From NCBI GenBank assembly GCA_944331955.1, contig CALVIY010000005.1:1-57573 (forward strand): a DNA stretch of 57,573 nt. The letters run 5' to 3'. The notes under the pieces are model-generated. The model saw only the letters and a list, made by a program, of their open reading frames with translations. It was not told the DNA's origin and did no database searches. This document shows positions 1 through 18,585 of this stretch, piece after piece. The translations under genes and the position numbers were made by a program. Numbering within the stretch: the first letter of the stretch is position 1; the number at the start of each line of letters is the position of its first letter. This stretch comes from an uncultured Bacilli bacterium (GTDB taxonomy: Bacteria > Bacillota_I > Bacilli_A > RF39 > UBA660).

Positions 1-194
1 ATATCTACAACTGTTTTTCCTTTATAACTTCCACATTTAGGACAAACACGATGAGCTTTAATCATTTCACCACAGTTTGGACATTTAACCATACCTGGTA
101 CTTCTAAGGCGTTATGACTTCTTCTCATTCTTTTTCTTGTTTTTGATACCTTTCTAAAAGGAACTGCAAACATTTGAATATCTAACTTTAACAT
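1..194 (-). CDS. rpmF: 50S ribosomal protein L32 (3' end runs off the window) with a 9-aa N-terminal extension
   Basis: Manual translation [64 protein letters not shown]; zinc-ribbon CxxC..CxxC; follows yceD; GGAGTG RBS precedes ATG at 194; alternative ATG at 173. Confidence 0.93.
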
Positions 195-198
195 ATTA

Positions 199-663
199 TC
201 ACTCCTTCTCTATTTTCTTTAATAAATCTTTAAAGGGATTATTAGTACTTTTCTTTACTTCATCTTCACTAATAACTCTCCATCCATCCCCTACATATTC
301 ATCATAATTAGTAACCTCGCTATAGCGAATAGGGATCTCTAGTACTATATTTTCCCATAAAATGCTAATAATATCAAGAGAAAATTGATCATTTTCTAAT
401 CTTTCACTCACATTTTCACTAATTTTAAAGGAAAATGGATAATTTACAGGCTCTAGGCTAACAGAATCTTCTAAAGTCATAGAACCTGTACATTCTATTT
501 CTAATAGTAAATTATCATCACTAGGATAAGTTAATTTACCTAATACTTTAACCTTAGATAAATCTATAATAGATGTATCAGTATAATATTCTTTAGGAAT
601 AATATAGGAATTATCTATATCAATATAACTTACTTTATTATCTAATAACTCTTTAATATCCAT
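199..663 (-). CDS. yceD: YceD/DUF177 family protein
   Basis: Position upstream of rpmF; I-x-L-E-I-P and C-terminal NPF..L motifs. Confidence 0.8.
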
Positions 664-666
664 AAA

Positions 667-1167
667 TCACCATCTCTTAAAAAATACCATGAATAATAGT
701 ATAACCATACTACATGCTACTGACATATTTTCCTTTAGAACATAACTTCTTTCATAAAAGCAAGCGAAATCATCTACTAGATTAACTATCCAACTTTCTA
801 AATATTTAGGTATAGCCTTACCAACAGGAAACATATGTGAACCAATTATGTCTTGCTCTAAATCATTTAAATCAAAGTATTTTAGGGAGTTTTCTAAAGC
901 TATTTTAGGATGATTTACTAATGTATGTGCTTTCTTTTCATCATACTCATCTAAAAAGAAATCATGTAAAAGTGCTCCTCTTGTTGTACTTTTATAATCT
1001 AAATGACAGAATTTAGTTATTATATAGGAATAGTATGCTACTCTCATCATATGTGAATATCTATCCATACCATGGTGTATACATTCTTTTGTCTTTTGAT
1101 ATTCATCATTACTTATAATTGGCATTATTATATTATTAAATTCCATATTAGGATAAAAAGTTTTCAT
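667..1167 (-). CDS. HD-domain phosphohydrolase
   Basis: H...H...LLHDF...H...HMFP...D motif set. Confidence 0.8.
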   Translation of the reverse strand: MKTFYPNMEFNNIIMPIISNDEYQKTKECIHHGMDRYSHMMRVAYYSYIITKFCHLDYKSTTRGALLHDFFLDEYDEKKAHTLVNHPKIALENSLKYFDLNDLEQDIIGSHMFPVGKAIPKYLESWIVNLVDDFACFYERSYVLKENMSVACSMVILLFMVFFKRW

Positions 1168-1270
1168 AATCTAATCCAAACACCGCTTTCTTCTTTTTAG
1201 CTTTACCGCTTTTATAAGTTTAGCATAAATTTAATAGTTTATCAAGTTTACATATATACTTGACACTTAT

Positions 1271-2332
1271 TTAACTAAGTTCGGCTTTTACTTTTTTTAC
1301 ACCTTTTTTAATATCACTCTTAAAGAATCTATAACTTGCAGATATTAAAATATATATTGGTAAAGCGATAATGATACCAAGTGGTCCTCCTACAGTTCCT
1401 CCAATTGACACCATCATAATAGTAATTAATGGATTTACATTATTAGTCTTACCATAAACTCTAGGTGATATAACATAACCATCAAGTTGTGGGAATATTA
1501 AACAAATAATTAGAGTTGCTATAAAAAGATTAGGACTTATAACTGATGCGGTTAATAAAGCTAGTAAGTTAGTAATAAGTCCTCCAAAATATGGAATAAC
1601 GGTTGTAAGAGATGCTAAAACTCCAAATAAGAACCAGTTAGGATGTCCTACTATTAAAAAGACAAGGGAATATTCAAAAAACTGAATTACCATAAATGTT
1701 AATAGTCCTTTTAAATAGTTACTAAGTTCTGTATCTAAAGCTTTAACATAACGGAAATACTTATATTTAACTTGTTTTAAAAAATCTCCTACAACTACTC
1801 TTATCTTATCCATATATGCTAGAAAATAAATGGCAACAACAAAAGTTATTACTACTTTTCCTAGGAAGGAAGCAGTTTTACCTACTATATCAATAGAACC
1901 ATCTTTTAAGAAGTTACCTAAGCTGTTAATTATCTCATTTAAATAACTTTCACTACTATCTGCTATAAAGCTTAAATTTATATTAAATTTATCTCCAATA
2001 TCTTCTATAACTTTACCAATGTTAGTAGCAAACATAACAAGTTGATTATAAAGAAGTGGTAGTGTTATAACTAAAAGAGTAATGATAATAGCAGTTACAC
2101 CTACTACTACTATTGTAACAGCAAGGGATCTTCTAACTCCTTTAGATATTAATTTTCTAACCATTGGATTAAGGGCATAACTTATTGCAAAAGCAATTAT
2201 AAAAGGCATACATATTTTAATAATAGATAAGATTATATTAAACCATGTACCTATATTAGTAACTATAATATATAAAAGTCCCATTAATATTAAAAAGTTC
2301 AACAATTTATAATTTATTCTATTTTTATACAT
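1271..2332 (-). CDS. AI-2E family transporter
   Basis: Multi-TM; IPYFG, ISPRVYG, GxxGxxxAxP motifs. Confidence 0.85.
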   Translation of the reverse strand: MYKNRINYKLLNFLILMGLLYIIVTNIGTWFNIILSIIKICMPFIIAFAISYALNPMVRKLISKGVRRSLAVTIVVVGVTAIIITLLVITLPLLYNQLVMFATNIGKVIEDIGDKFNINLSFIADSSESYLNEIINSLGNFLKDGSIDIVGKTASFLGKVVITFVVAIYFLAYMDKIRVVVGDFLKQVKYKYFRYVKALDTELSNYLKGLLTFMVIQFFEYSLVFLIVGHPNWFLFGVLASLTTVIPYFGGLITNLLALLTASVISPNLFIATLIICLIFPQLDGYVISPRVYGKTNNVNPLITIMMVSIGGTVGGPLGIIIALPIYILISASYRFFKSDIKKGVKKVKAELS

Positions 2333-2334
2333 AA

Positions 2335-2769
2335 TTATCTCTCCAACATAATAGTAGTAGGTCCCATATTAGTTAAAGTAATAGACATATCTGCACCAAA
2401 TATACCTGCTTTAGTAGGAACATATTCACTTAAAACTTTATTAAAGTATTCATATAGTAGTTTAGCTTTCTCTCCCCTCATCGCTTTCATATAACTTGGT
2501 CTATTCCCTTTAGTAGTATCAGCATAAAGAGTAAACTGAGAAATTGATAAAATAGATCCCTTAGTATCAAGAACAGATAAGTTCATTACTCCATTATTAT
2601 CAGGAAATATTCTAAGATTAAGAATCTTATTAACCATCCAAAGAATCGTATCTTTATTATCAGTATCAGTAAACCCTACAAGTAGCATTAGTCCATTATC
2701 TATTTCACTTACTATTTTATTATTAACAGTGCATTTAGAATTACTACATCTTTGAACTAAGACTTTCAT
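2335..2769 (-). CDS. dtd: D-aminoacyl-tRNA deacylase
   Basis: MKVLVQR, SQFTL, NxGPxT; immediately after rel. Confidence 0.95.
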   Translation of the reverse strand: MKVLVQRCSNSKCTVNNKIVSEIDNGLMLLVGFTDTDNKDTILWMVNKILNLRIFPDNNGVMNLSVLDTKGSILSISQFTLYADTTKGNRPSYMKAMRGEKAKLLYEYFNKVLSEYVPTKAGIFGADMSITLTNMGPTTIMLER

Positions 2770-4919
2770 TGTATCAACCTCTCTACACTTGTAATATATG
2801 GTAAATTATCTAAATCTAGTATTAATTTATTTAACTCTTTTAAGTTTCTAATAACTACTTCCATCTCATAAGTTACATATTCATCTCTATTAATAGTTTT
2901 AATACTAGTAATATTAGCATTATTTTTAATAGTAGTACTTGTAATATCAACAAGTTTATTATCAAGAGTATCTGTTCTAATAACTAAGTCACTATAGTAT
3001 TTATTAGTAGGTGTGGAATCCCAACTTACTTTAATACATCTATCATCCATACTAGCTAAGTTACGGCAAGTACTTCTATGAATTGTTATACCATTACCTC
3101 TTGTAATATAACCTACTATATCATCACCATGAACTGGTTTACAGCATGATGCTATACTTACTTTTATTTTGTCTATTCCATCAACTATTATGTCAGAAGC
3201 ACTATCATTTATTTTGACAATACTTTTAAGTAGTTTAGGTTTTTCTTCTTCTTTTTCTCCATAATTTATATTTATAACACTATTAACAGTATGCTTATTA
3301 CTACCTATATCATAGTATAAGTCATCTAAATTATCTATTTTTAGACTCTTATAAACTTCTTTAAGCTTCTCATCACTGTAAAAGTCACTAAGTATTATTT
3401 TTCTTTTTCTTAACTCTTTTTCTAAGAATTCTTTACCTCGCTCTACTAGTACTTCTTTTTCATTCTTACTAAAGTAACTCTTAATCTTATTACGTGCTCC
3501 TGTAGTTTTAACGATATTTAACCATTCTTTAGAAGGATGAGCACTTTTATTAGTATTTATTTTAATAATATCATTACTTTTTAGTTCATAATCAAGTGGT
3601 ACTATATTACCATTAACAATCGCTCCTACAGTAGTTTCTCCTACTTTACTATGAACTTTATATGCGAAGTCTAAAGGGGTCGCTCCACGAGGTAGTTCTA
3701 TAACATCTCCTTTAGGGGTAAAGACATAGATATTATTATTTAAAACTTCATCTTTAACCGAACTAACAAACTCTTCACTACTCATTTTATCGTTTTCTAG
3801 TTCCATAATTTCTTTAAAGAATTGTAGTTTTTGGGTAGTTACAGATTGAAGGTTAGCAGTTTTTTTACTACCACCATTTTCTTTATAAGCCCAGTGTGAG
3901 GCAATACCGTTTTCTGCTACTTCATCCATCTCATATGTTCTAATTTGAATTTCAAATAGATAGCCATCTATACCAAAGACGGTTGTATGTAGCGACTGAT
4001 ACATATTAGGTTTAGGCATAGCGATATAGTCTTTAAAACGTTTTGGTAGTGGTCTAAACTTAGAATGGATTAGACCAAGAGCAAGATAACAATCTTGTTC
4101 TGTATCTACTAAAACACGAAGTGCAAGTAAATCGTAAATGTCACTAAATTTCTTACCTTTATCTAGTTTATTATAGATACTATAAATACTCTTAGCACGT
4201 CCTTTAATCTGATGAGGGATGTGATGAAGATTTAATAGTTCAGTTACTTCTTCTTGCATCTCATAAACTGTTGTATCACGTTCTGCTTTTGTCTTATTAA
4301 GTTTATCTGCTATATCATAAAAGACGGTTGGTTTTAAGTAACGAAGTGATAAGTCTTCAAGTTCACTTTTTATTTTATGAATACCAAGGTGATGGGCTAA
4401 AGGAGCGAATATTTCAAGCACTTCTTTAGACTTCTTTTTTTGCTTTTCCACAGGTGTTGCCCAAAGTGTTCTCATATTATGAAGACGGTCTGCAAGTTTT
4501 ACAATAATTACTCTAACATCTTCGCTCATTCCCACAATTATTTTCTTATAATACTCAACTAAGTACTCATTATCAGTAGAAAAATGAAGTCTACCTAATT
4601 TAGTAACACCATCTACTAATTTATAAACTGTAAGACCAAATTTCTCTTTAAATTCATCTATATCTACATCACAGTCTTCAACTACATCATGAAGAAGTCC
4701 TGCAATTAAACATTCACTATCTGCATAAATACTAGTAAGTATCAAAGCAACGTTTAAAGGGTGGATGATATACTCTTCTCCACTCTTTCTAAACTGTCCT
4801 TTATGCTTTTCTTTAGCATAATAATATGCATCTAATATTTTTTCTCTTTCTTTAGGATCCTTTATATAGGAGTCCACTTTATCCATTAAATCATCTATTG
4901 TTATAGTGTCTTTTTTCAT
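2766..4919 (-). CDS. rel: bifunctional (p)ppGpp synthetase/hydrolase
   Basis: HD hydrolase (LHDVVED), synthetase (YQSLHT, EIQIRT), TGS and ACT domains. Confidence 0.97.
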   Translation of the reverse strand: MKKDTITIDDLMDKVDSYIKDPKEREKILDAYYYAKEKHKGQFRKSGEEYIIHPLNVALILTSIYADSECLIAGLLHDVVEDCDVDIDEFKEKFGLTVYKLVDGVTKLGRLHFSTDNEYLVEYYKKIIVGMSEDVRVIIVKLADRLHNMRTLWATPVEKQKKKSKEVLEIFAPLAHHLGIHKIKSELEDLSLRYLKPTVFYDIADKLNKTKAERDTTVYEMQEEVTELLNLHHIPHQIKGRAKSIYSIYNKLDKGKKFSDIYDLLALRVLVDTEQDCYLALGLIHSKFRPLPKRFKDYIAMPKPNMYQSLHTTVFGIDGYLFEIQIRTYEMDEVAENGIASHWAYKENGGSKKTANLQSVTTQKLQFFKEIMELENDKMSSEEFVSSVKDEVLNNNIYVFTPKGDVIELPRGATPLDFAYKVHSKVGETTVGAIVNGNIVPLDYELKSNDIIKINTNKSAHPSKEWLNIVKTTGARNKIKSYFSKNEKEVLVERGKEFLEKELRKRKIILSDFYSDEKLKEVYKSLKIDNLDDLYYDIGSNKHTVNSVININYGEKEEEKPKLLKSIVKINDSASDIIVDGIDKIKVSIASCCKPVHGDDIVGYITRGNGITIHRSTCRNLASMDDRCIKVSWDSTPTNKYYSDLVIRTDTLDNKLVDITSTTIKNNANITSIKTINRDEYVTYEMEVVIRNLKELNKLILDLDNLPYITSVERLIQ

Positions 4920-4955
4920 AATATCACTGTCTTTCTAGTCTTTTTATTCTTTTAT

Positions 4956-7244
4956 TTAATCATTTATACCTTTAATAGTTTTCTCACTCACTTCTTTTAC
5001 TTGCTTTTTCTTCTTATTATTAGATTTAGTTTTACTAGCAAAGAATACATAAAGTCTTCCTGCTATTAATAGTGATGAATAAGTACCTGCAACTAATCCT
5101 ACTATCATCGCTACATTAAAGGTTAGTATTTCTCTACTTCCCATAATTATCAAGGCAATTACTGGAAGTAATGTTGTAAGTGATGTATAAATACTTCTTG
5201 TAAGTGTTTCTTTAATACTTATATTAACAACATCTGCAAGTTCATCTTTACTTATGGTTTCTTTATTACGTTTCTTTAAGTTTTCACGTACTCTATCGAA
5301 TACTACTATTGTATTATTAATTGAATATCCTATGATAGCAAGTACGGCTGCTATAAACATAGAATTTACTTCTACTCTTAGAAGAATAACTGATGCTACC
5401 ATCATTAATGCATCGTGAATTAAACAGATAACTGATGATATACCATAACTAAATTTAAATCTAAGGGTAATATATAGGATAATACCTATTAATGAGATAA
5501 GGATTGAGAATATTGCATTTTTAATTAAGTCTTGTTTAACGACATTAGATACAACTCCAATATCAACACTAGCATTATACTTTTCAAGGAAATAACTTTC
5601 TATTTCAGATATTTCATTTTCTTTTAACTCATCACTTACTCTAATATCAGTCTCACTATTAGTAATATCAATACTTACTTCATCTAATTTAAGTTCTTTT
5701 AAGTCGCCTCTTAAATCTTTTTCACTAACTTCTGTAGTTGATAAAGTTATATCACTACCAGCTTGGAAATCAATTCCAAGATTCATTCCTTTGAAGGCAA
5801 ACATAACTACTGATGCAAGTATTACTACCAAACTAAAGGCAGCGAAAAATTTACTAAGTCCTAAATAATTATATGTTGGTTTCTTATTTTCTTCTTTAAT
5901 TTCTTCTTCGTGAACACCAATAAAGAAATTAAGTTTATTATCAAAGTATTTAGTCTTAACAAACATCTTTAATAGAACTCTTGTAATAAATACCATAGTA
6001 ACCATTGTTACAATAATATTAATGATTAACATAGTTGCAAAACCTTTGACACTAGATTCACCTAGATAGAACATGATGATGGCAACTAAAAGTGTTGTAA
6101 GGTTAGCATCAAGGATTGTTCCAAAACTAGCTTTACTACCATTTTTAAAAGCTGTCTCTAGACTTCTTCCTTTAAGTAATTCTTCTTTAATACGAGAATA
6201 AGTTAGAACATTAGCATCTACTGCCATACCTATACCAAGGATTAAAGCGGCAATACCAGGAAGGGTTAAAACACCTCCTACAAGCCAAAATGATGCGAAT
6301 ACTAATAATGTATATAAAACTATTGATACTGCAGAAATAACACCTGCAAAATTATAAATACCAATTAGTAAGATAATGATAGCAAGAACACCTGCAATAC
6401 CTGCATACATTGTCATTGTAAGTGTTGCATCTCCAAAGCTTGCTCCTACTGTTTTACTAGATACTTCAGTAAGTTTAGCAGGAAGACTACCTGAATTAAT
6501 TAAATCTACTAAATTACTAGCTTCTTCTTCGGTAAAGTTACCTTGAATAATAACATCACTAGCAAAGCCTTCAGTTACTGTAGCAGCACTTATACAATTA
6601 CTTTCATCTGTTCCACACATACCAGCTTCATTAGCATAAGAATCAGTCATTTCATCAAAATCTAACCAAATGGCAATAATGTTAGTTTCATAATCTTTAA
6701 CAGCATTAGTTACTTTATAGAAAGTATCTTTATCTTTAACTGCTAAACTAACAGCAGGTCTACCATTAGCATCTGTTGTAAGTCTAGCACCACCTGCTTC
6801 TAAAACATCACTAGACATAAGTAAATTATCTTCACTATCTCTAAATGTTAGAGTTGCAACAGTAGATAATGTTTCTCTTGCTTCATCTTTATTAGTAACA
6901 CCAGCAAGTTTAACTCTAATTCTATTATCCCCTTCTAAAGTGATTTCTGGTTCACTAACACCTAAAGTATCTATACGTTTAAGCATACTTTTATAAGTAG
7001 CATTTAATTTATCTTTATTCATTTTACTTCCATCAATTGGACTAACTTCGTAAAGGATTTCAAAACCACCTTGTAAATCAAGACCAAAGTTTAATGATTT
7101 AAAAAGTGGCACTACTAAAAAGCATACTATAACAGCGATTACAACAAGTAATCCTGTTCTAAGTAACATAGCTTTTTTCTCTTTAGCCATATGTTTCCTT
7201 TCTTTTTTTATCTTTTTTTCTTTAATTTTCTTTTCTTTCTTCAT
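4956..7244 (-). CDS. secDF: protein translocase subunit SecDF (fused)
   Basis: GLDLQGG, GMAVDAN, GIDFxxG, GYSINNTIVVFDR motifs. Confidence 0.95.
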   Translation of the reverse strand: MKKEKKIKEKKIKKERKHMAKEKKAMLLRTGLLVVIAVIVCFLVVPLFKSLNFGLDLQGGFEILYEVSPIDGSKMNKDKLNATYKSMLKRIDTLGVSEPEITLEGDNRIRVKLAGVTNKDEARETLSTVATLTFRDSEDNLLMSSDVLEAGGARLTTDANGRPAVSLAVKDKDTFYKVTNAVKDYETNIIAIWLDFDEMTDSYANEAGMCGTDESNCISAATVTEGFASDVIIQGNFTEEEASNLVDLINSGSLPAKLTEVSSKTVGASFGDATLTMTMYAGIAGVLAIIILLIGIYNFAGVISAVSIVLYTLLVFASFWLVGGVLTLPGIAALILGIGMAVDANVLTYSRIKEELLKGRSLETAFKNGSKASFGTILDANLTTLLVAIIMFYLGESSVKGFATMLIINIIVTMVTMVFITRVLLKMFVKTKYFDNKLNFFIGVHEEEIKEENKKPTYNYLGLSKFFAAFSLVVILASVVMFAFKGMNLGIDFQAGSDITLSTTEVSEKDLRGDLKELKLDEVSIDITNSETDIRVSDELKENEISEIESYFLEKYNASVDIGVVSNVVKQDLIKNAIFSILISLIGIILYITLRFKFSYGISSVICLIHDALMMVASVILLRVEVNSMFIAAVLAIIGYSINNTIVVFDRVRENLKKRNKETISKDELADVVNISIKETLTRSIYTSLTTLLPVIALIIMGSREILTFNVAMIVGLVAGTYSSLLIAGRLYVFFASKTKSNNKKKKQVKEVSEKTIKGIND

Positions 7245-7266
7245 GACATACCTCCGATTATACTCC

Positions 7267-7533
7267 TTATATTATTTCAACATTTTGTTTCATAGCTTTA
7301 GTATCTTTAAGATATTTATCTAATAGTTTATTATCACAGTTTAAAATATCACCAACTATATCACTAAGTTCCAAATTATGAGCTTTACTCCATTTAGTAA
7401 GAATTAAATAATTCCAGACATCATTTTTATGAATATAACGATATCCTAATCTATCTAATTCACTTTTCTTAGCATCTAAAGCAGGTTCTACCATCTGATA
7501 TAACTCTTCCTTACTATTAAAAGTAAAATCCAT
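7267..7533 (-). CDS. ComN-like post-transcriptional regulator
   Basis: PAL..K..EL..LGY.....DVWNYL...KW pattern; upstream of secDF as in Bacillus. Confidence 0.7.
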   Translation of the reverse strand: MDFTFNSKEELYQMVEPALDAKKSELDRLGYRYIHKNDVWNYLILTKWSKAHNLELSDIVGDILNCDNKLLDKYLKDTKAMKQNVEII

Positions 7534-7674: not shown

Positions 7675-9582
7675 TTAACTAGCAAGTTCTAGAGTGAACG
7701 GATTATTTTTAGTACCATCACCAGAAGTTATTACTACGTTAGATTTTAGATTTAATGATGGACGGGCCGCCCCGAACGCGTCCGAAGAAGGGTCATTGTA
7801 GTCGACTGCGTTACCATTGATGATGGCAAGCCACACGCTAGACGAACTGTATAGTGTTAAGCTCCAATAATTTGTATTATTACCATATATATCAAATTGA
7901 CCTGCCATTAATTCTCCTAATCTAAGTAATCCTACTTTTGCATTAGTTGTACTTGATGTTAAGTTATTACCTGTTGAATCTGTATATTTAGCTAATTTAT
8001 ATGATGTACCACCCTCTACAGTTCCAAGGTACCAAGTTGTATTATCTTCTATCATTGAACTATAACTACTATCCACATAATTTGTTAGATAGTCGCCATT
8101 TAAAAATGCTCCTATAGTATTTGTGCTTGAATAATTTACATTCCTATTACTGTCAAAAGCACTTGTTATAAAGGTTCCAGAACTCTTTAATGGTTCGGCA
8201 CTGGTAATCTTTGTTCCTGCACCATTTTCATGACTTACTATTCTATATAGATTGTTTTCATCATTTCCAAAGCGGATGTATTCTCCACTGTACCTAGTAT
8301 TAAGTAATGTGCCAGCAAGGTTTGTATCATTATCTCCTTTTAGTCTATATGGATTATCTATTGTTCCATCACCATCTACAATACTAACACTAGATTTTAG
8401 ATTTATAGATGGACGAATTCCATACGCGTAGATAGGCTTTCCATTGCTCACGTTGCCGTTGTTGTTAACGTAACGCACGCGAGACGTACTAGATGGTGTT
8501 AAAGTCCACCATATAAGCCCATTATTTAAATAACCATTACTATAAGTTGTTCCTTTATAACTTATTACATACTCATAATAATTTAATAATCCTATCCCAT
8601 CTTCAACCATTGTGGTTTCTGAAGGTTTACTTGAAGATGTAGTTTCTGTAGCATTCCACTTTGCATCAGTCACAATAAAGTTTTCGTAATCTCTTAAATT
8701 ACCTAGAAAACCATCTACTGTTGTATCATTTAACCAAGATTCCATATAACTTCCTTCAAAAGCAGTTTGATTTTCTGGATTATATGTAATTACACTTATA
8801 TTCCACTGTGTTACTAACTTAGTTGTTTTTGCTTCATTATTAACAGATACTGCTCTCCATAATTTTCCACTATACCAGACATAGTTATTAGGATCTTCTC
8901 CTGTTATAAAAGTATCTGTTCCATCATCATAGGTACTTCCACTATTTAAGTTTTCTATAATTACTTTTGATGCTTCTTCTCCTACTCTATCTTTTCCATA
9001 GACATTTATTTTTACTGCAAAGGTCAAATTTCCTCCATCTCCTTGAGGATTATAATTTTCATCAACATACATTCTAAGTCTATAATTATTAGATTCACTA
9101 CTATTCATACTACTTGTATATAAACTCATCTCACCTATTGGTCTTCCTGTAAATGTATTAGATGTAGCCTCTTCATTATAAGTCTTAGGACTCATTAATT
9201 GTTCTTCTCCATCATCAGTTAATCTTGTTAAATATAACTTAATATTAGAACCATCTATTGTCCCTTCTCCTACTTCTTTGGCACTTATCTCATAATTGAT
9301 ATTAACATCTCCTGTTATTTCACTACTTACTGTAAAGTCAAAGTACTCTCCTTCTTTTAATCTTGTTGTACCTGTTTTATCAGTTGTTGGTAGAGCATTA
9401 CCTAAACTTATCGTATTATCACTTTCTTCATATGTCATTGTAATAGATCCTGTTGTAATTTTATTAGGAGTATTACCTTGCTTACTAAAACTAAAGGCTG
9501 CATAACTTACTCCTATTATCGCTATTACCATAACAATTAACATCACTACTATTATAATATTTTCTTTTTTCTTTAAATTCAT
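7675..9582 (-). CDS. secreted/surface protein: TasA/camelysin-like N-terminal domain plus two CLec-like (DUF6273-like) domains ending in DGR-type variable regions
   Basis: Signal peptide ending GVSYA|AF; internal duplication, each copy ending W(T/S)LT....RPS(I/L)NLKS....GDGT..NP(Y/F). Confidence 0.7.
   Translation of the reverse strand: MNLKKKENIIIVVMLIVMVIAIIGVSYAAFSFSKQGNTPNKITTGSITMTYEESDNTISLGNALPTTDKTGTTRLKEGEYFDFTVSSEITGDVNINYEISAKEVGEGTIDGSNIKLYLTRLTDDGEEQLMSPKTYNEEATSNTFTGRPIGEMSLYTSSMNSSESNNYRLRMYVDENYNPQGDGGNLTFAVKINVYGKDRVGEEASKVIIENLNSGSTYDDGTDTFITGEDPNNYVWYSGKLWRAVSVNNEAKTTKLVTQWNISVITYNPENQTAFEGSYMESWLNDTTVDGFLGNLRDYENFIVTDAKWNATETTSSSKPSETTMVEDGIGLLNYYEYVISYKGTTYSNGYLNNGLIWWTLTPSSTSRVRYVNNNGNVSNGKPIYAYGIRPSINLKSSVSIVDGDGTIDNPYRLKGDNDTNLAGTLLNTRYSGEYIRFGNDENNLYRIVSHENGAGTKITSAEPLKSSGTFITSAFDSNRNVNYSSTNTIGAFLNGDYLTNYVDSSYSSMIEDNTTWYLGTVEGGTSYKLAKYTDSTGNNLTSSTTNAKVGLLRLGELMAGQFDIYGNNTNYWSLTLYSSSSVWLAIINGNAVDYNDPSSDAFGAARPSLNLKSNVVITSGDGTKNNPFTLELAS
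7741..7870 (-). repeat. DGR-like variable region 2 (C-terminal)
   Basis: 7761-7850 is 52/90 G+C in an AT-rich gene; encodes YWSLTLYSSSSVWLAIINGNAVDYNDPSSDAFGAARPSLNL. Confidence 0.65.
8392..8512 (-). repeat. DGR-like variable region 1 (internal)
   Basis: 8411-8490 is 40/80 G+C; AAC AAC AAC GGC AAC codon run; encodes WWTLTPSSTSRVRYVNNNGNVSNGKPIYAYGIRPSINL. Confidence 0.65.
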
Positions 9583-9617
9583 TTTCTTATTACTCCTCCA
9601 CTATTTTTTCTAACACT

Positions 9618-9648
9618 AAAAAGAACAGGATATAATTATCCTGTTCTT
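9618..9648 (-). terminator. intrinsic terminator/attenuator in the leader of the surface-protein gene
   Basis: Perfect 12-bp stem AAGAACAGGATA-ATTA-TATCCTGTTCTT followed by TTT, about 35 nt before the start codon. Confidence 0.8.
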
Positions 9649-9681
9649 ATGTCATAATGAAAGAAAGTAACTATTGTACTA

Positions 9682-9729
9682 CTAAACTGCCCCCCCCCAG
9701 GTAACTTTTTGTAAACATTCAGTGCTCAT
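9682..9729 (-). CDS. leader peptide MSTECLQKVTWGGAV containing a G9 tract
   Basis: GAAGGT RBS-like sequence before ATG 9729; homopolymer at 9690-9698; lies between promoter and terminator. Confidence 0.55.
   Translation of the reverse strand: MSTECLQKVTWGGAV
9690..9698 (-). repeat. G9 homopolymer (slipped-strand contingency tract)
   Basis: Nine consecutive C on the plus strand in very AT-rich DNA. Confidence 0.85.
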
Positions 9730-9765
9730 ATTTTTTACCTTCTTTCACCTATCTTAATTAATCTG

Positions 9766-9795
9766 ATCTTAACATAATTACTATTAGATATGCAA
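9766..9795 (-). promoter_or_regulatory. sigma-A promoter for leader/surface gene
   Basis: TTGCAT-18 nt-TAAGAT with TGn extended -10. Confidence 0.6.
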
Positions 9796-9891
9796 CTAAA
9801 TTGTTTTATATTTACATATATTTACATATAGTATACACTACTTTCTATAATCTTAAAATTAAGTTATAATAATATTAGAAAAGAGGTATTT

Positions 9892-10473
9892 ATGAAAAGT
9901 ATACTTAAAAAAGAAGTTTATGAAGTAACTATTAAACATTCTAAGTTTATAGGAGTTATTATACCTATAGAATCTCTTGATGATATTAAAGTTAATTTAA
10001 ATAAATTAAAAGAAGAATATAAGAATGCTACTCATTATTGTTATGCTTTTAAATTAATTGATGATAAAGGTTGTAGTGATGATGGTGAACCTAATAAAAC
10101 TGCAGGCATACCTATTTTAAATGTTTTAGAAGGTGAAAACTTAATAAATGTCTTAGTTGTAGTTATAAGATATTTTGGAGGTATTAAATTAGGTCCAGGA
10201 GGCCTTATTAGAGCCTATTCTAGTACTTGTAAAGAAGTTATTAATAAAGCCCTTAAAATAGATTTAATTAATGGATATGAAGTATCTATTACTTTTCCTT
10301 ACTCTAATGAAAAAGAAATAAACTATCTACTTAAAAATAGTATTATTAAAAATAAAGAATATAAAGAGTCATGTACTTATACTATAGAAGTTACTAAAGA
10401 AGTATTAGATAGTATTTCTAACTTTGTAACAATAAACTATAAACATGAAAAAATAATTCCTAAACTTGATTAG
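9892..10473 (+). CDS. yigZ: YigZ/IMPACT family protein
   Basis: ATHYCYA, DDGEP..TAG, RYFGGIKLG.GGLIRAY. Confidence 0.92.
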   Translation: MKSILKKEVYEVTIKHSKFIGVIIPIESLDDIKVNLNKLKEEYKNATHYCYAFKLIDDKGCSDDGEPNKTAGIPILNVLEGENLINVLVVVIRYFGGIKLGPGGLIRAYSSTCKEVINKALKIDLINGYEVSITFPYSNEKEINYLLKNSIIKNKEYKESCTYTIEVTKEVLDSISNFVTINYKHEKIIPKLD

Positions 10474-16018: not shown

Positions 16019-17401
16019 CTAAAACTCACAGTTACCAGGTGTTCTTGGATATGGTATAACATCTCTTATATTTTCTACACCTGTTAAATATATTAAAAGT
16101 CTCTCAAAGCCCATACCGAATCCTGAATGAACACAACCACCATATTTACGTAGGTTAATGTACCAGTCAAGTTCTTCCTTATCCATACCTAACTCATCCA
16201 TACGAGCAACTAATTTGTCATAATCTTCTTCTCTTTGAGAGCCACCCATTATTTCACCTGCCCCAGGTACTTCAAGGTCAACTGCTGCAACAGTCGCACC
16301 ATCAGGATTTTGTTTCATATAGAAAGCTTTAATATCTTTAGGCCAGTTGGTAATAAATACTGGTCCATCAAAATATTCTGTGATATATTTTTCGTGTTCT
16401 TTAGCGATATCTTCTCCTTGAATAGGCTCAAACTCCCATTTAACATCTGCTTTTTGTAATATGTCTATAACCTCTTTATGAGTAACTCTAGTAAATTTAG
16501 ATTTAACTAATTTAGTAAGTTTATCAAGTAGTCCTTTTTCTACAAACTTATCTAAGAATTCCATTTCATCTTTACAGTGTTCTAATACATAGCTAACTAC
16601 ATATTTTAACATCTCTTCCATTATTTCCATATCGCCTTCTAAATCGCAGAAAGCAATCTCAGGCTCTATCATCCAAAACTCATTAGCATGTACTTTGGTA
16701 TTAGAGTTCTCTGCTCTAAATGTAGGACCAAAAGTATACGTTTTTTTGTAAGCTAAAGCGAATGTTTCTGCTTCTAATTGCCCTGATACTGTTAATGATG
16801 CAGGTTTAGAGAACATATCTTTGCTATAGTCAACTTTTCCATCTGTTTTTGGAACATCCTCTAAATCAAAACATGTAACATGAAACATCTCTCCTGCTCC
16901 TTCACAGTCACTTGCAGTTATTAATGGAGCATGAAAATAAACATAACCTCTATCTTGGAAATATTTATGGATAGCATAAGCTGCTACACTTCTAACACGA
17001 AATACTGCTTGAAACAAGTTAGTTCTAGGTCTAAGATATGCTTGTTCTCTTAAAAACTCTCTTGAATGTTTCTTAGGTTGTATTGGATAATCCTCTGGAC
17101 ACTCTCCTAGTAATATAACTTCACTTGCCTGTACTTCAAAGTCCTGTCCTTCTTTAGGTGATTTAACTACTGTTCCTACTACTTTAATTGCACTACCAAC
17201 ATGATATTTTTGAATCTCTTCAAAATCTTTTAACTTATTATCATAAACAACTTGAATATGTTTAAAACATGTGCCATCAGAAAAATCTATAAAACCAAAC
17301 TCTTTTTGTTTCCGATGATTCCTAATCCATCCTTCTAATGTAACTTCTTTATCCATATATTCATCGATACTATCATATAATTTTTTTGCATCTATTGCCA
17401 T
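16019..17401 (-). CDS. asnS: asparagine--tRNA ligase
   Basis: OB-fold GWIR, LTVSGQL, FRAENS, GFGMGFERL; Asn T-box upstream. Confidence 0.97.
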   Translation of the reverse strand: MAIDAKKLYDSIDEYMDKEVTLEGWIRNHRKQKEFGFIDFSDGTCFKHIQVVYDNKLKDFEEIQKYHVGSAIKVVGTVVKSPKEGQDFEVQASEVILLGECPEDYPIQPKKHSREFLREQAYLRPRTNLFQAVFRVRSVAAYAIHKYFQDRGYVYFHAPLITASDCEGAGEMFHVTCFDLEDVPKTDGKVDYSKDMFSKPASLTVSGQLEAETFALAYKKTYTFGPTFRAENSNTKVHANEFWMIEPEIAFCDLEGDMEIMEEMLKYVVSYVLEHCKDEMEFLDKFVEKGLLDKLTKLVKSKFTRVTHKEVIDILQKADVKWEFEPIQGEDIAKEHEKYITEYFDGPVFITNWPKDIKAFYMKQNPDGATVAAVDLEVPGAGEIMGGSQREEDYDKLVARMDELGMDKEELDWYINLRKYGGCVHSGFGMGFERLLIYLTGVENIRDVIPYPRTPGNCEF

Positions 17402-17440
17402 AATTTTTCCTCTCCTTCTTTATTAGTATAACATTTATTA

Positions 17441-17977
17441 TTATTTTATTAAAACTTTTTCTTCCTTCTTAACTGGAATAGACATAACTTTAGCCTCTCT
17501 TCCTATAGTATTAAGAAATTTAAAACATTCAGATAGAGGCATAAATATACTCATACCGTTGTATAAAGGATGAAAAGCTACTTCACTAGTTTCTAATAAA
17601 TCTTCATCTATTATTAACTTAATCTCTTTATTTTCATCATATATCATGTTAAATATTGAAACATTACCAGGTGTAGCATTAATCAGATTCTCCATATCTA
17701 CAGGACTAACAAACTCTAATTTATGACAAGAAAGCTCTTCTTTTAAAGCTTTTAAATCTACCTGTTTAGAACTATCTGTTATAACTAAATATTTATTCTT
17801 ATTCCCCTTTCTTTCTTGAACTAATAAGTGTTTGCCAACAGCATAGTTTTCATCTAAATAATCTTCCCATCTACTATAATCAACACAGCCAGTCGCTTCT
17901 TTATGTCTGATACAATAATCATATTGTATCCCTCTTTTTTCCAAGGAATCACAAAACTCAAAAGCTTTCATAGTCAT
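17441..17977 (-). CDS. YbaK/ProX-like aminoacyl-tRNA deacylase paralog; the likely true start at 18053 is one base out of frame
   Basis: K.L.V, L.F, PG.VS.F, FHPL.N..S motifs; strong AAAGGAG RBS precedes ATG 18053. Confidence 0.75.
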   Translation of the reverse strand: MTMKAFEFCDSLEKRGIQYDYCIRHKEATGCVDYSRWEDYLDENYAVGKHLLVQERKGNKNKYLVITDSSKQVDLKALKEELSCHKLEFVSPVDMENLINATPGNVSIFNMIYDENKEIKLIIDEDLLETSEVAFHPLYNGMSIFMPLSECFKFLNTIGREAKVMSIPVKKEEKVLIK

Positions 17978-18077
17978 CTCTATACGATGTGATTCTTCTT
18001 TAGATAATTTAATATTTTTAAATAACTCCTTTAAAATTCCCTACTTCTAACATAAAATCATCTCCTTTAATAAATAA

Positions 18078-18350
18078 TAAAAGACTAGTCCGATACCATA
18101 ATACTTATAGTACTATGGGACGAAACTAGTCTTCCGCGGTGCCACCCAATTTATTATAAAGGAATATTAACTTTATAATCACTCTTTTCGATTCTATCAA
18201 ATCTAGCAAATGTAACGGTTTGCACCCGGCTTAGTCTACTTAATTTCTTTAAGCACTCCGAAATGTTATTCACTATTCTCTCTTTACTTGTTTCCACCTT
18301 CCACAAGCTCTCTATAAAAGATTAAAATAGTTACTTCTTTTCATCAATGT
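18078..18350 (-). promoter_or_regulatory. T-box riboswitch with Asn (AAC) specifier
   Basis: AATTGGGTGGCACCGCG T-box, AGAGA and GGTGGAA stem-I motifs, GAATAACA specifier (AAC at 18265-18267), long terminator AAGACTAGT...ACTAGTCTTTT. Confidence 0.92.
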
Positions 18351-18456: not shown

Positions 18457-18585
18457 GTAAGAAAAAAATTCATACAATATAAAAGGAACACTTAATATTC
18501 GCGTGTTGAGTGTGCCTCTAATTAATTGTTTTTTTGTATTAGAACCACCTAAACCTCGCTTGAGTTAGGTGGATTCTTCTATTTT
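18457..18585 (+). ncRNA. putative antisense antitoxin RNA
   Basis: Promoter TTGTAT-17-TAAGAT (18422-18450); hairpins ACACTTAATA/TGTTGAGTGT and CCACCTAA/TTAGGTGG followed by a T-rich tract; convergent with small toxin-like ORF. Confidence 0.55.

What the first reader, a model, noticed from the sequence alone, without database searches (positions are those of the whole stretch)
9583..9795. Poly-G phase-variable leader peptide positioned to switch an intrinsic terminator
Seen on the minus strand: promoter, RBS, ATG 9729, G9 tract, perfect 12-bp terminator (9618-9648), then the 635-aa surface gene. With G9 the peptide stops at 9682 and with G10 at about 9671, both more than 20 nt before the stem. 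With G8 or G11 it reads ...WGGQFSSTIVTFFHYDIRTG* and stops at 9636-9638, at the top of the terminator stem, so a ribosome would occupy the 5' arm. Inference: an ON/OFF switch by slipped-strand mispairing, with this allele OFF. Established precedent: repeat-containing leader-peptide attenuation of the Streptococcus gallolyticus pil1 pilus. A homopolymer version controlling a DGR-type target would combine expression switching with sequence diversification.
Basis: partly seen in the sequence, partly recalled or inferred. Interest (0 to 1): 0.85.

Follow-up and report, generated by a model that had tools for sequence, protein, structure and literature searches.

The report
Poly-G leader switch gating surface genes
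A run of nine G's inside a tiny upstream reading frame decides whether ribosomes reach and disable a transcription stop signal in front of a surface-protein gene, and about 35 copies of this same switch sit in front of surface-protein genes across this small gut-bacterium genome.

Summary
On the minus strand lie a promoter, SD, ATG 9729, G9 9698-9690, a 12-bp hairpin with T-run 9648-9618, and the 635-aa gene. G9 and G10 frames stop 33 and 22 nt before the stem. The G8/G11 frame stops at TAA 9638-9636, at the stem apex.

It is not a one-off. G/C runs in the 1.5-Mb, 27.7% GC genome are bimodal (4 of length 7, 26 of length 9). 31 of 34 runs of 8 or more lie in the same cassette, before three or four surface-protein families. 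The pattern occurs in 43 of 52 genomes of the genus and in 0 of 199 other genera of the family.

In 68 of 70 parsed cassettes, and 16 of 20 diverged ones with unrelated hairpins, exactly one frame ends in the hairpin and two end early. One orthologous pair is 99.05% identical over 4.9 kb; its only indel is G9 versus G11.

Best reading (0.72): heritable slipped-strand switching by translation-dependent antitermination, as in S. gallolyticus pil1, with this allele OFF.

Additions: a conserved anti-SD pairs with the leader SD. A real DGR diversifies a cassette-gated paralog, but not this gene. No read-level or expression data could be obtained.

The parts
9790..9795 (-). -35-like hexamer TTGCAT
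   Evidence: Read. It lies 18 nt upstream of the -10. The same TTGCAT is kept at the orthologous promoter in related species. A -35-like motif sits at -56 to -84 in most own cassettes.
9766..9774 (-). extended -10, TGt-TAAGAT
   Evidence: The motif TGnTAnn[AT]T is found at -41 to -52 from the leader ATG in 25 of 34 own-genome cassettes. Promoter function is inferred.
9735..9749 (-). leader Shine-Dalgarno region GGTGAAAGAAGGTAA, the 5' strand of helix P1
   Evidence: MFE fold. SD:anti-SD duplex energy is -14.8 kcal/mol on average, against -7.5 for shuffles, over 70 cassettes. 92.6% of cells are paired in 53 cassettes.
9682..9729 (-). leader ORF as it stands (G9): 15 codons MSTECLQKVTWGGAV plus TAG
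   Evidence: The ATG-to-tract length is 1 mod 3 in 68 of 70 cassettes, although lengths range from 22 to 46 nt.
9690..9698 (-). G9 homopolymer, the proposed slippage site
   Evidence: Tract lengths of G6 to G11 occur among homologous cassettes.
9671..9673 (-). TAG that would end the G10 (and G7) frame
9656..9670 (-). anti-SD TTACTTTCTTTCATT, the 3' strand of P1; translated only in the G8/G11 frame
   Evidence: It also pairs with the main gene's SD region: -12.5 kcal/mol against -7.7 for shuffles.
9636..9638 (-). TAA that ends the G8/G11 (read-through) frame at the apex of the hairpin
   Evidence: The stop at this place is TAG 47, TAA 19 and TGA 3 across cassettes.
9621..9648 (-). terminator hairpin, 12 bp with loop ATTA
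9618..9622 (-). T-run of the terminator; its first two T's can pair at the stem base
9593..9599 (-). SD GGAGGAG of the main gene, 10 nt before its ATG
   Evidence: The hairpin-to-ATG distance is 23-39 nt (median 30) in 59 cassettes, which is too short for a separate promoter.
7675..9582 (-). 635-aa gene with an N-terminal hydrophobic anchor and a DUF6273 domain; a member of 'family 1'

Best explanation
The region 9583-9795 is one copy of a modular, heritable ON/OFF switch. A promoter drives a short leader ORF that contains a poly-G tract. Slipped-strand mispairing at replication changes the tract length and so the leader's reading frame. In two frames (here G9 and G10) the ribosome stops 33 or 22 nt before the terminator stem. 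The anti-SD 9670-9656 then pairs with the leader's SD, the hairpin 9648-9621 forms, and RNA polymerase terminates at the T-run, so the gene is OFF. In the third frame (G8 or G11) the ribosome translates across the anti-SD and through the whole 5' arm to the TAA at the stem apex. The hairpin cannot form, polymerase reads on, and the 635-aa surface protein is made from its own SD. This allele (G9) is OFF. What is shown: the anatomy, its conservation, the frame logic, and tract-length differences between near-identical copies. What is inferred: the promoter, termination itself, coupling of ribosome and polymerase, the role of the SD:anti-SD helix, and switching within a population.
For: (1) Anatomy is exact.
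(2) G/C runs are bimodal, with 4 of length 7 against 26 of length 9. 31 of 34 runs of 8 or more lie in the same cassette.
(3) Frame rule: exactly one frame ends inside the hairpin and two end 15-60 nt upstream. This holds in 68 of 70 parsed cassettes, against about 0.13 in shuffles. It holds in 16 of 20 diverged cassettes from other species with unrelated hairpin sequences; the other 4 could not be evaluated.
(4) The leader is read as codons. ATG-to-tract length is 1 mod 3 in 68 of 70 cassettes, though it varies from 22 to 46 nt. A 9-nt insert after the tract keeps the frame. Where a 7-nt indel occurs (C17, C81, C57), the read-through length moves to G10/G7 but the same final frame still enters the hairpin. 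The apex stop is kept as TAG, TAA or TGA.
(5) Tract length changes faster than its flanks. L001 and L011, from two different assemblies, align over 4,922 nt at 99.05% identity, and the only gap is G9 (OFF) versus G11 (ON). This was the only such pair found. C23 copies with 897 of 900 identical downstream bases carry G6 versus G9.
(6) Consensus states are 61 OFF, 7 ON and 2 other, as expected for a contingency family.
(7) There is no room for a separate promoter: the hairpin lies 23-39 nt from the main ATG.
(8) The cassette is modular. Four related species have a family-1 gene at the orthologous site with a plain promoter and no cassette. Three own cassettes lack a promoter motif and lie 20-25 nt after an upstream same-strand ORF of at least 150 codons.
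(9) The same logic was shown experimentally for GCAGA repeats in S. gallolyticus pil1 and pil3 (PMC3894217, sections 13 and 16 read).
Against: No read-level data exist. The public runs are held only as contigs, and none bridges the tract, so population heterogeneity is untested. There are no usable expression or 3'-end data.

MutS and MutL are present, so slippage is not boosted by loss of mismatch repair.

G9 dominates strongly (67 of 89 cassettes). That could instead reflect selection for one fixed length.

The cassettes are paralogs, so the counts are not independent.

The between-strain evidence is a single pair of assemblies. One relative (the CAWVIV assembly; its record title carries a Flye-type long-read assembler label) may have unreliable homopolymer lengths.

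The model needs a ribosome close behind the polymerase. From my recollection, not from any call, Bacillus subtilis often lacks such coupling.

The SD:anti-SD helix is supported mainly by conservation. Covariation is weak: 6 cells at 1 of 10 pairs changed on both sides.
Confidence: 0.72

Rival explanations
1. The tract has a fixed length and there is no heritable switch. G9 is a programmed slippery site. RNA polymerase stuttering, or +1 ribosomal frameshifting on GGG GGG G, sends a fraction of ribosomes into the read-through frame. All the gated genes are then expressed at a low, tunable level rather than switched clonally.
For: G9 is by far the commonest length: 25 of 35 own cassettes and 42 of 54 in relatives. 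Mismatch repair genes are present. Only one tRNA-Gly (UCC) was found among 19 tRNAs in this incomplete assembly, so GGG may be decoded slowly. The frame architecture serves this model equally well.
Against: Tract lengths of G6 to G11 exist in otherwise conserved cassettes. An orthologous pair differs only by G9 versus G11. Near-identical paralogs differ by G6 versus G9. No frameshift stimulator such as a downstream pseudoknot was seen, and the next codon in the G9 frame, GCA, does not look like a stalling codon. This model can coexist with DNA slippage.
Confidence: 0.12
2. Control is mainly translational or acts on RNA stability, not on termination. The untranslated anti-SD masks an SD (the leader's or the main gene's), and the hairpin acts as a stabiliser or processing site.
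For: The anti-SD pairs almost as well with the main gene's SD region (-12.5 kcal/mol) as with the leader's (-13.9), against -7.7 for shuffles. P1 is conserved, with 92.6% of cells paired.
Against: In every hairpin variant a T-run follows, which is the form of an intrinsic terminator. The read-through frame always ends in the hairpin, not at the anti-SD. The leader SD is transcribed first and lies nearer. The MFE fold leaves the main SD unpaired.
Confidence: 0.08
3. The poly-G acts as a promoter-spacer or other DNA-level element, or the cassette is a selfish repeat without regulatory function.
For: Promoter-like hexamers are common in this AT-rich DNA: 15 found against 5.9 expected in 800 nt. 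The cassette is repeated and lies at many contig ends.
Against: The tract lies downstream of the conserved extended -10 and inside an ORF with its own SD. By my inspection, the hexamers flanking the tract would be 20 nt or more apart. Conservation of frame, stops and hairpin is not expected of a selfish repeat. The cassette sits only before genes with N-terminal anchors.
Confidence: 0.04

Closest known systems
Streptococcus gallolyticus pil1 / pil3 leader-peptide attenuation (Danne et al. 2014, PMC3894217; abstract and sections 13 and 16 read)
   Same: A simple-sequence repeat sits inside a short leader ORF and is followed by a stem-loop terminator before the regulated surface-structure genes. 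Short peptides stop well upstream (39 bp in strain UCN34; at least 28 nt in other isolates). Long peptides stop within or after the hairpin and give high expression. The majority state is low.
   Different: Here the repeat is a mononucleotide G run, not GCAGA. Exactly one of three frames is ON, with its stop fixed at the stem apex. There is a conserved anti-SD that pairs with the leader SD. The unit is a portable cassette present about 35 times per genome before non-pilus proteins (DUF6273 and others). The organism is an uncultured small-genome Bacilli lineage. Nothing has been tested at the bench.
Classical contingency loci with poly-G/C tracts (Campylobacter jejuni, Neisseria, Haemophilus); recalled, only listings seen
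   Same: G/C homopolymers of about 8-11 bases in an AT-rich genome, many loci per genome, surface-exposed products, and most loci OFF at any time.
   Different: In those systems the tract lies in the coding region or the promoter spacer of the regulated gene. Here it lies in a separate leader ORF 108 nt upstream of the main gene's ATG and would act through a terminator, so the protein sequence itself is never frameshifted.
Multigene phase-variable surface families with a conserved 5' cassette (Mycoplasma hyorhinis vlp, Neisseria opa); recalled, opa from the abstract listed
   Same: A conserved promoter, leader and signal-peptide module is repeated before divergent surface-protein genes, and each copy switches on its own.
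   Different: vlp uses a poly-A tract in the promoter spacer. opa uses CTCTT repeats in the signal-peptide coding region. Neither uses a leader peptide and a terminator.
Leader-peptide attenuators of amino-acid operons (trp type), as summarised in PMC3894217 section 16
   Same: The ribosome's position on a leader ORF decides whether a terminator forms.
   Different: No alternative antiterminator helix is present: -3.7 kcal/mol against -4.0 for shuffles. The signal is the reading frame set by DNA, not the tRNA supply.
Clostridioides difficile cwpV invertible switch (recalled; not read here)
   Same: A heritable DNA change in the leader decides whether an intrinsic terminator forms before a surface-protein gene.
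   Different: That change is site-specific inversion, not repeat slippage, and no leader peptide is involved.

Membership tests
SSR-in-leader-peptide transcription attenuator (pil1 type) | Short leader ORF with its own SD and start codon that contains the repeat | tested here: met
   ATG-to-tract length is 1 mod 3 in 68 of 70 cassettes.
SSR-in-leader-peptide transcription attenuator (pil1 type) | Intrinsic terminator between the leader ORF and the regulated gene | tested here: met
   Predicted only. 12-bp stem plus T-run, -17.6 kcal/mol and z -6.2. A hairpin plus T-run is present in every subtype, with unrelated sequences.
SSR-in-leader-peptide transcription attenuator (pil1 type) | Some frames stop well upstream of the hairpin; others stop within or beyond it | tested here: met
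   In the window: 33 and 22 nt upstream for G9 and G10, and at the apex for G8/G11. Holds in 68 of 70 cassettes and 16 of 20 diverged ones.
SSR-in-leader-peptide transcription attenuator (pil1 type) | Repeat number differs between strains or copies | tested here: met
   G6 to G11 among cassettes. L001 has G9 and L011 has G11, and this is the only indel in 4,922 nt at 99.05% identity. G6 versus G9 in paralogs with 897 of 900 identical bases.
SSR-in-leader-peptide transcription attenuator (pil1 type) | Repeat number is heterogeneous within one population and tracks expression | not testable with these tools
   The runs are held only as assembled contigs, and none bridges the tract.
SSR-in-leader-peptide transcription attenuator (pil1 type) | Read-through requires leader translation and is made constitutive by deleting the terminator | not testable with these tools
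   This is a bench experiment.
DGR variable (target) protein | Variable region matching a template repeat, with mismatches at template adenines | tested here: not met
   blastn of the genome's TR (word size 7, E up to 1e-3) finds VRs on C17 (19 of 23 mismatches at A) and C57 (10 of 11), and none on C5, the contig that is the window.
DGR variable (target) protein | Reverse transcriptase and accessory gene nearby | tested here: not met
   RVT_1 matches lie on C17, C26, C89 and C9 only. On C17 a bAvd-like gene and an RT follow the target.
DGR variable (target) protein | C-terminal ligand-binding domain of the kind that carries VRs | tested here: inconclusive
   The window protein's residues 572-631 align with the VR-bearing end of the C17 paralog at 33% identity, E 3e-5. 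DUF6273 hit. The fold was not modelled.
Classical contingency locus (tract in the coding region or promoter spacer of the regulated gene) | Tract lies inside the regulated ORF or between its -35 and -10 | tested here: not met
   The tract is 108 nt upstream of the main ATG and downstream of the conserved extended -10.
trp-type attenuator | Alternative antiterminator helix competing with the terminator | tested here: not met
   Post-tract segment against the 5' arm: -3.7 kcal/mol, against -4.0 for shuffles, in 70 cassettes.
Any Rfam cis-regulatory family | Match at the family's gathering score | tested here: not met
   Only two weak matches: 25.2 bits against a cut-off of 64, and 24.2 bits against 58.7.

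The most novel reading that the evidence does not exclude
A whole genus of small-genome gut Bacilli runs its surface on one portable part. That part combines a promoter, an SD, a poly-G leader ORF, an anti-SD that mimics the 16S rRNA 3' end and locks the leader when untranslated, and a frame-gated terminator. It has been copied before 30 or more genes per genome. It is chained in tandem arrays, so that read-through from one gene is gated again at the next. At some loci it is stacked on a diversity-generating retroelement, so that the same protein is both switched and hypermutated.
Probability: 0.5. Interest if true: 0.85.

Novelty: new variant of a known kind. Interest (0 to 1): 0.72.

Why it matters
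Repeat-controlled leader-peptide attenuation is known to me from one streptococcal system, with two loci. Here the same principle appears in a simpler homopolymer form, as a modular cassette used about 35 times in a 1.5-Mb genome. By my estimate (about 33 genes of roughly 600 codons), these genes make up some 4% of its coding capacity. The cassette is found in 43 of 52 genomes of the genus (one genome per species in this collection).

This has four consequences:
- It gives an uncultured chicken-gut (and possibly human-gut) commensal a very large combinatorial surface repertoire.
- It explains why such assemblies break at these sites.
- It offers natural 'mutants' for testing ribosome-polymerase coupling in Bacillota: cassette-free orthologs, a leader with a premature stop, and indel-shifted frames.
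- It provides a compact frame-gated terminator part.

The co-occurrence with a DGR at two loci makes it possible to test directly whether expression switching and sequence diversification are layered on one protein.

Tried and rejected
1. Read-level tract heterogeneity. The one search for runs gave chicken-gut and air metagenomes held only as Logan contigs. Laying X1, X4, X6 and X20 showed contigs ending at 9727, 9708 and 9690. None bridges the tract, and no indel is listed there. These breaks are most simply due to the repeat. They are no evidence for or against heterogeneity. The RNA run's patchy cover is likewise uninterpretable.

2. Same locus in other metagenomes. There was 1 hit, L089, a human-gut contig carrying a G10 cassette of a different locus that is cut by the contig end.

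3. Rfam: nothing near a gathering score.

4. trp-like antiterminator helix: rejected.

5. Tract as promoter spacer: rejected on spacing, by my inspection. A weak ATGACA-17-TATCCT match overlaps the hairpin, but by my inspection it is not kept in the other hairpin types.

6. RNAalifold on A1 recovered P1 but not the terminator, because the hairpin subtypes are not alignable. It found no compensatory pairs within the close set.

7. MAFFT alignment A2 mis-registered the SD, so I used a covariance-model alignment instead.

8. A class-wide BLAST of the cassette scored only 2 candidates per genome, so its negatives are weak. The pattern scans replace it.

9. Naming the protein. NCBIfam gave no hit for the whole protein, and only sub-threshold hits for the N-termini of two paralogs. 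PDB sequence search gave none. Pfam gave none for families 2 and 3. The Atlas gave DUF6273 clusters.

10. Literature. Searches, and passages of PMC12360218, found no homopolymer-in-leader-ORF terminator switch and nothing on this genus beyond taxonomic or abundance mentions. The 'Onthousia' text in PMC8035907 lies beyond the held part. Supplements were closed and not consulted.

12. I did not fold the protein or run complex prediction, because neither bears on the switch.
Full report
**What is there**

Read on the minus strand, the intergenic region between a divergent UPF0029 gene (9892-10473, plus strand) and a 635-aa ORF (9582-7675) contains the following parts:
- a -35-like TTGCAT (9795-9790)
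- an 18-nt spacer
- an extended -10, TGt-TAAGAT (9774-9766)
- an SD, GAAAGAAGG (9746-9738)
- ATG 9729
- a G9 tract, 9698-9690
- a perfect 12-bp hairpin, 9648-9637 with 9632-9621, with a 4-nt loop
- a T-run, 9622-9618
- a second SD, GGAGGAG (9599-9593)
- the main ATG at 9582

As it stands, the leader encodes MSTECLQKVTWGGAV and stops at TAG 9684-9682. One more G would give a stop at 9673-9671. One fewer G, or two more, gives ...WGGQFSSTIVTFFHYDIRTG with TAA at 9638-9636, which straddles the last two bases of the 5' arm and the first base of the loop.

The terminator scan finds this one site in 800 nt, against 0.1 expected. The hairpin folds at -17.6 kcal/mol, z = -6.2. No Rfam family comes near its threshold.

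**It is a family, not a single locus**

The window is contig C5 of a 1,505,173-bp, 95-contig, 27.65% GC assembly. Its G/C homopolymers fall from 32 (length 6) to 4 (length 7) and 4 (length 8), then jump to 26 (length 9) and 4 (length 10).

Of the 34 runs of 8 or more, 31 lie in the same conserved cassette. Two (C4, C60) share its leader half. One (C87) is unrelated. Shorter decayed copies also exist: G6 on C23, and G7 on C9 and C57.

The cassette precedes genes that begin with a hydrophobic N-terminal anchor:
- family 1, MxxKKKENIII...GVSYAAFSFS, which includes the window gene; DUF6273
- family 2, MMKKLLLETSFSKIYM...
- family 3, MEKKKNKKATV...
- one further type

18 of 23 family-1 starts and 14 of 15 family-2 starts in the genome have a tract of G6 or longer within 260 nt upstream. 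Those without are mostly distant relatives.

An extended -10-like motif sits at a fixed distance (-41 to -52 from the leader ATG) in 25 of 34 cassettes. Three cassettes without any promoter motif lie 20-25 nt after an upstream same-strand ORF of at least 150 codons. This fits a device that acts on transcripts already under way.

**Distribution**

An exact-pattern scan of one genome per species found the cassette core in 53 loci from 18 assemblies. Their record titles read uncultured Bacilli or Tenericutes and Candidatus Onthousia.

The looser pattern (G8, then 15-45 nt, then ACTTTCTTT) is present in 43 of 52 genomes of the window's genus, with 0 hits for the reversed control. It is present in none of the 200 other genomes searched in the same family, which comprise 199 other genera and one congener. 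One human-gut metagenome contig also carries it. Runs that hold the window's DNA are chicken-gut metagenomes, plus one air sample.

**The frame logic is conserved**

I parsed 70 cassettes: 34 from this genome and 36 from relatives' loci. Fifteen more had a leader start that my parser could not fix, and 4 lacked a recognisable start or hairpin.

The distance from ATG to tract varies (22, 28, 31, 32, 40, 43, 46 nt) but is 1 mod 3 in 68 of 70. Exactly one frame ends inside the hairpin and the other two end 15-60 nt upstream in 67 of 70. A second implementation gives 68 of 70, against about 0.13 for shuffled post-tract segments.

After the tract, a common 9-nt insert keeps the frame. Where a 7-nt indel occurs (C17, C81, C57), the read-through length moves to G10/G7, yet the same final frame (...ITFF...) still runs into the hairpin. 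The stop at the apex is TAG 47 times, TAA 19 and TGA 3.

The strongest test comes from 20 diverged cassettes fetched from other species. Their leaders (for example MNISSLHLVNMGGG... and MYQFSKVNKQLTWGG...) and their hairpins are unrelated in sequence to the window's. 16 of 20 obey the same rule. Of the other 4, two are cut by contig ends and two have starts my parser missed.

The paralogs are not independent, so these are not probabilities. Persistence of the rule across unrelated hairpins and shifted frames is nonetheless hard to explain unless the leader is translated and the place where it stops matters.

**Does the tract actually change?**

Lengths G6 to G11 occur among cassettes. The own genome has G6 x1, G7 x1, G8 x4, G9 x25 and G10 x4. 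The relatives, which were ascertained at G8 or longer, have G8 x2, G9 x42, G10 x9 and G11 x1.

Two C23 copies whose next 900 nt are 897/900 identical carry G6 and G9.

Among 66 cassettes with 400-nt flanks, one pair from different records had both flanks at least 90% identical. This pair is L001 and L011, from two assemblies. They align over 4,922 nt at 99.05% identity with 45 mismatches and a single 2-nt gap. That gap is the tract: G9 (early stop) versus G11 (stop in the hairpin). It is, however, one pair of assemblies.

Within-population heterogeneity could not be examined. The runs are stored as contigs that break at the repeat.

In consensus sequences, 61 cassettes are OFF, 7 ON and 2 other. 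In this genome the figures are 29 OFF, 4 ON and 1 with a premature stop in the leader. One relative's record title (CAWVIV) carries a Flye-type long-read assembler label, so its homopolymer lengths may be less reliable.

The MFE fold of the leader pairs the SD region 9749-9735 with 9670-9656 (TTACTTTCTTTCATT) in a 15-bp helix directly before the terminator: -43.5 kcal/mol, z = -4.7.

The duplex averages -14.8 kcal/mol in 70 cassettes, against -7.5 for shuffles. On a covariance-model alignment of 53 cassettes that includes the diverged ones, 92.6% of cells in the 10 core pairs are paired, against 57-70% when the partner is slid by 1-3 columns.

Covariation is weak. One of 10 pairs shows changes on both sides, in 6 cells (3 of 500 shuffles reach this). 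The covariation score is 0.217 against 0.195 for shuffles (5 of 500). That alignment is fitted to the structure.

In the diverged cassettes L128 and L129 the segment is read in another frame (...NYFLL...). The conservation is therefore at the RNA level, not the peptide level.

The segment is pyrimidine-rich and resembles the 3' end of 16S rRNA (my recollection). It pairs nearly as well with the main gene's SD region: -12.5 against -7.7 for shuffles.

It is translated only in the read-through frame. My inference is that it shuts the leader, and perhaps leaky read-through transcripts, when ribosomes stop early, which would sharpen the switch. No trp-like antiterminator exists.

The 18 nt just 5' of the tract (GTTTACAAnnnGTTACCT) are almost invariant, with one free codon. 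I cannot explain this.

**Mechanism and geometry (inference)**

In G9 and G10 alleles the ribosome leaves 33 or 22 nt before the stem. With a leading edge of roughly 12-15 nt (recalled), it cannot touch the 5' arm, so the hairpin forms and transcription ends at the T-run.

In G8/G11 alleles the ORF covers the whole 5' arm and ends at its apex. A ribosome close behind the polymerase then holds the 5' arm when the T-run is transcribed.

The hairpin lies only 23-39 nt from the main ATG in 59 cassettes.

The weak point is the need for transcription-translation coupling, which is untested in this organism.

**The DGR remark**

The genome does hold a DGR. On C17 a family-1 paralog (16580-18304, minus strand) is 82% identical to the window protein over its first 197 residues. 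It sits behind a G9 cassette at 18510-18518. Its VR (16654-16750, residues 519-550) differs from the downstream TR (about 16377-16470) at 23 positions, 19 of them TR adenines. A bAvd-like gene and RT genes follow. A second VR lies on C57 (10 of 11 mismatches at A), downstream of a G7 cassette on the same contig.

The window gene gives no VR match, and C5 has no RT. Its C-terminal 60 residues are only distantly similar (33% identity) to the VR-bearing domain. The stacking of switch and diversification is therefore real in this genome, but not shown for this gene.

**Natural controls**

In four related species (L062, L064, L065, L068) the site next to UPF0029 carries a family-1 gene driven directly by a TTGCAT...TATAAT promoter without any cassette. 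In two others (L066, L071) a family-2 gene sits there, also without a cassette. In one (L069) there is a G10 cassette of another subtype. The cassette is thus an add-on module.

**Comparison and novelty**

The closest known system is the GCAGA-repeat leader peptide of S. gallolyticus pil1 and pil3 (abstract and sections 13 and 16 of PMC3894217 read). It shares the repeat-in-leader ORF, the terminator, and the rule that a short peptide gives low expression and a long peptide gives high expression.

This case differs in several ways:
- the repeat is a homopolymer
- the design is strictly one frame in three
- there is an anti-SD helix
- the cassette is portable and present in many copies
- it is combined with a DGR at some loci

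My literature searches found no description of such a homopolymer version, nor of this genus's biology. The library lacks many subscription papers, and supplements were closed.

I class the finding as a new variant of a known kind. Confidence in the mechanism is 0.72 and interest is 0.72.

Noticed in passing
G000 contig C17:13000-18650 (locus L150); also C57:2114-2164: A diversity-generating retroelement. The TR lies at about C17:16377-16470 on the minus strand, and the VR at 16654-16750 inside a cassette-gated family-1 paralog. 19 of 23 mismatches fall at TR adenines. A bAvd-like gene and RT genes follow. A second VR lies on C57 (10 of 11 mismatches at A), downstream of a G7 cassette (C57:362-368) on the same contig.
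   Followed up: partly
G000 contig C87:496-504 (locus L149): The one G9 run outside the cassette sits just after a TATAAT-like box, at the very start of a PocR/AraC-family regulator gene. The local sequence is ATG-GGG-GGG-GGA..., or alternatively an SD for a second ATG 24 nt on. This may be a phase-variable regulator.
   Followed up: partly
G000 contig C60:4335-4497 (locus L147): A variant cassette with the usual promoter, leader and G9 but a different downstream half. That half still has a stretch pairing with the leader SD, and a hairpin with a T-run. Here G9 itself is the frame that ends in the hairpin. The gene behind it (164 aa) has no Pfam match.
   Followed up: partly
G000 contig C4:12292-12299: A G8 tract with the cassette's leader half (…GTTTACAATATGTTACAC-G8) directly after an upstream gene. 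It is followed by a different sequence with no clear terminator, and then a 113-aa ORF.
   Followed up: no
G000 contig C12:22086-22093: A G8 cassette whose leader has an in-frame TAG in place of the conserved CAA codon (MKRVCL-stop). If the model is right, this copy is naturally locked OFF.
   Followed up: no
L062, L064, L065, L068 (orthologous site next to UPF0029 in related species): The same gene family sits at the same site behind a plain promoter without the poly-G cassette. L066 and L071 carry a family-2 gene there, and L069 carries a G10 cassette of another subtype.
   Followed up: partly
G000 C23:6293-10440 and C47:209-6462: Tandem arrays with a period of about 2 kb of cassette plus gene. 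Copies with about 99.5% identical coding starts carry different leaders upstream of the tract, which suggests recombination at or near the cassette.
   Followed up: partly
window 9701-9718 and the same place in all cassettes (alignment A1): The 18 nt just 5' of the tract (GTTTACAAnnnGTTACCT) are nearly invariant, with one free codon. No pairing partner or function was found.
   Followed up: partly
own-genome cassettes with hairpin type AAGAGCAGGATA (for example C1:70854, C22:14571): The read-through peptide ends ...HYDIRAG-stop. This recalls, from memory, the GIRAGP end of the SecM arrest peptide. The window copy reads DIRTG, and other hairpin types read VTKRE or ARRIE, so it may be coincidence.
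   Followed up: no
window 9801-9830: A direct repeat, TATATGTAAA TATATGTAAA TATAAAACAA, lies just upstream of the -35 hexamer, between the divergent genes.
   Followed up: no
L089 (human-gut metagenome contig): A G10 cassette of this family on a contig labelled human gut, cut at the contig end.
   Followed up: no
window 1-7533: The genes downstream of the surface gene are housekeeping: a post-transcriptional regulator family protein, SecDF, RelA/SpoT, D-Tyr-tRNA deacylase, an AI-2E transporter, an HD protein and a YceD-like protein. The switch therefore sits in a core-genome neighbourhood, not on an island.
   Followed up: partly
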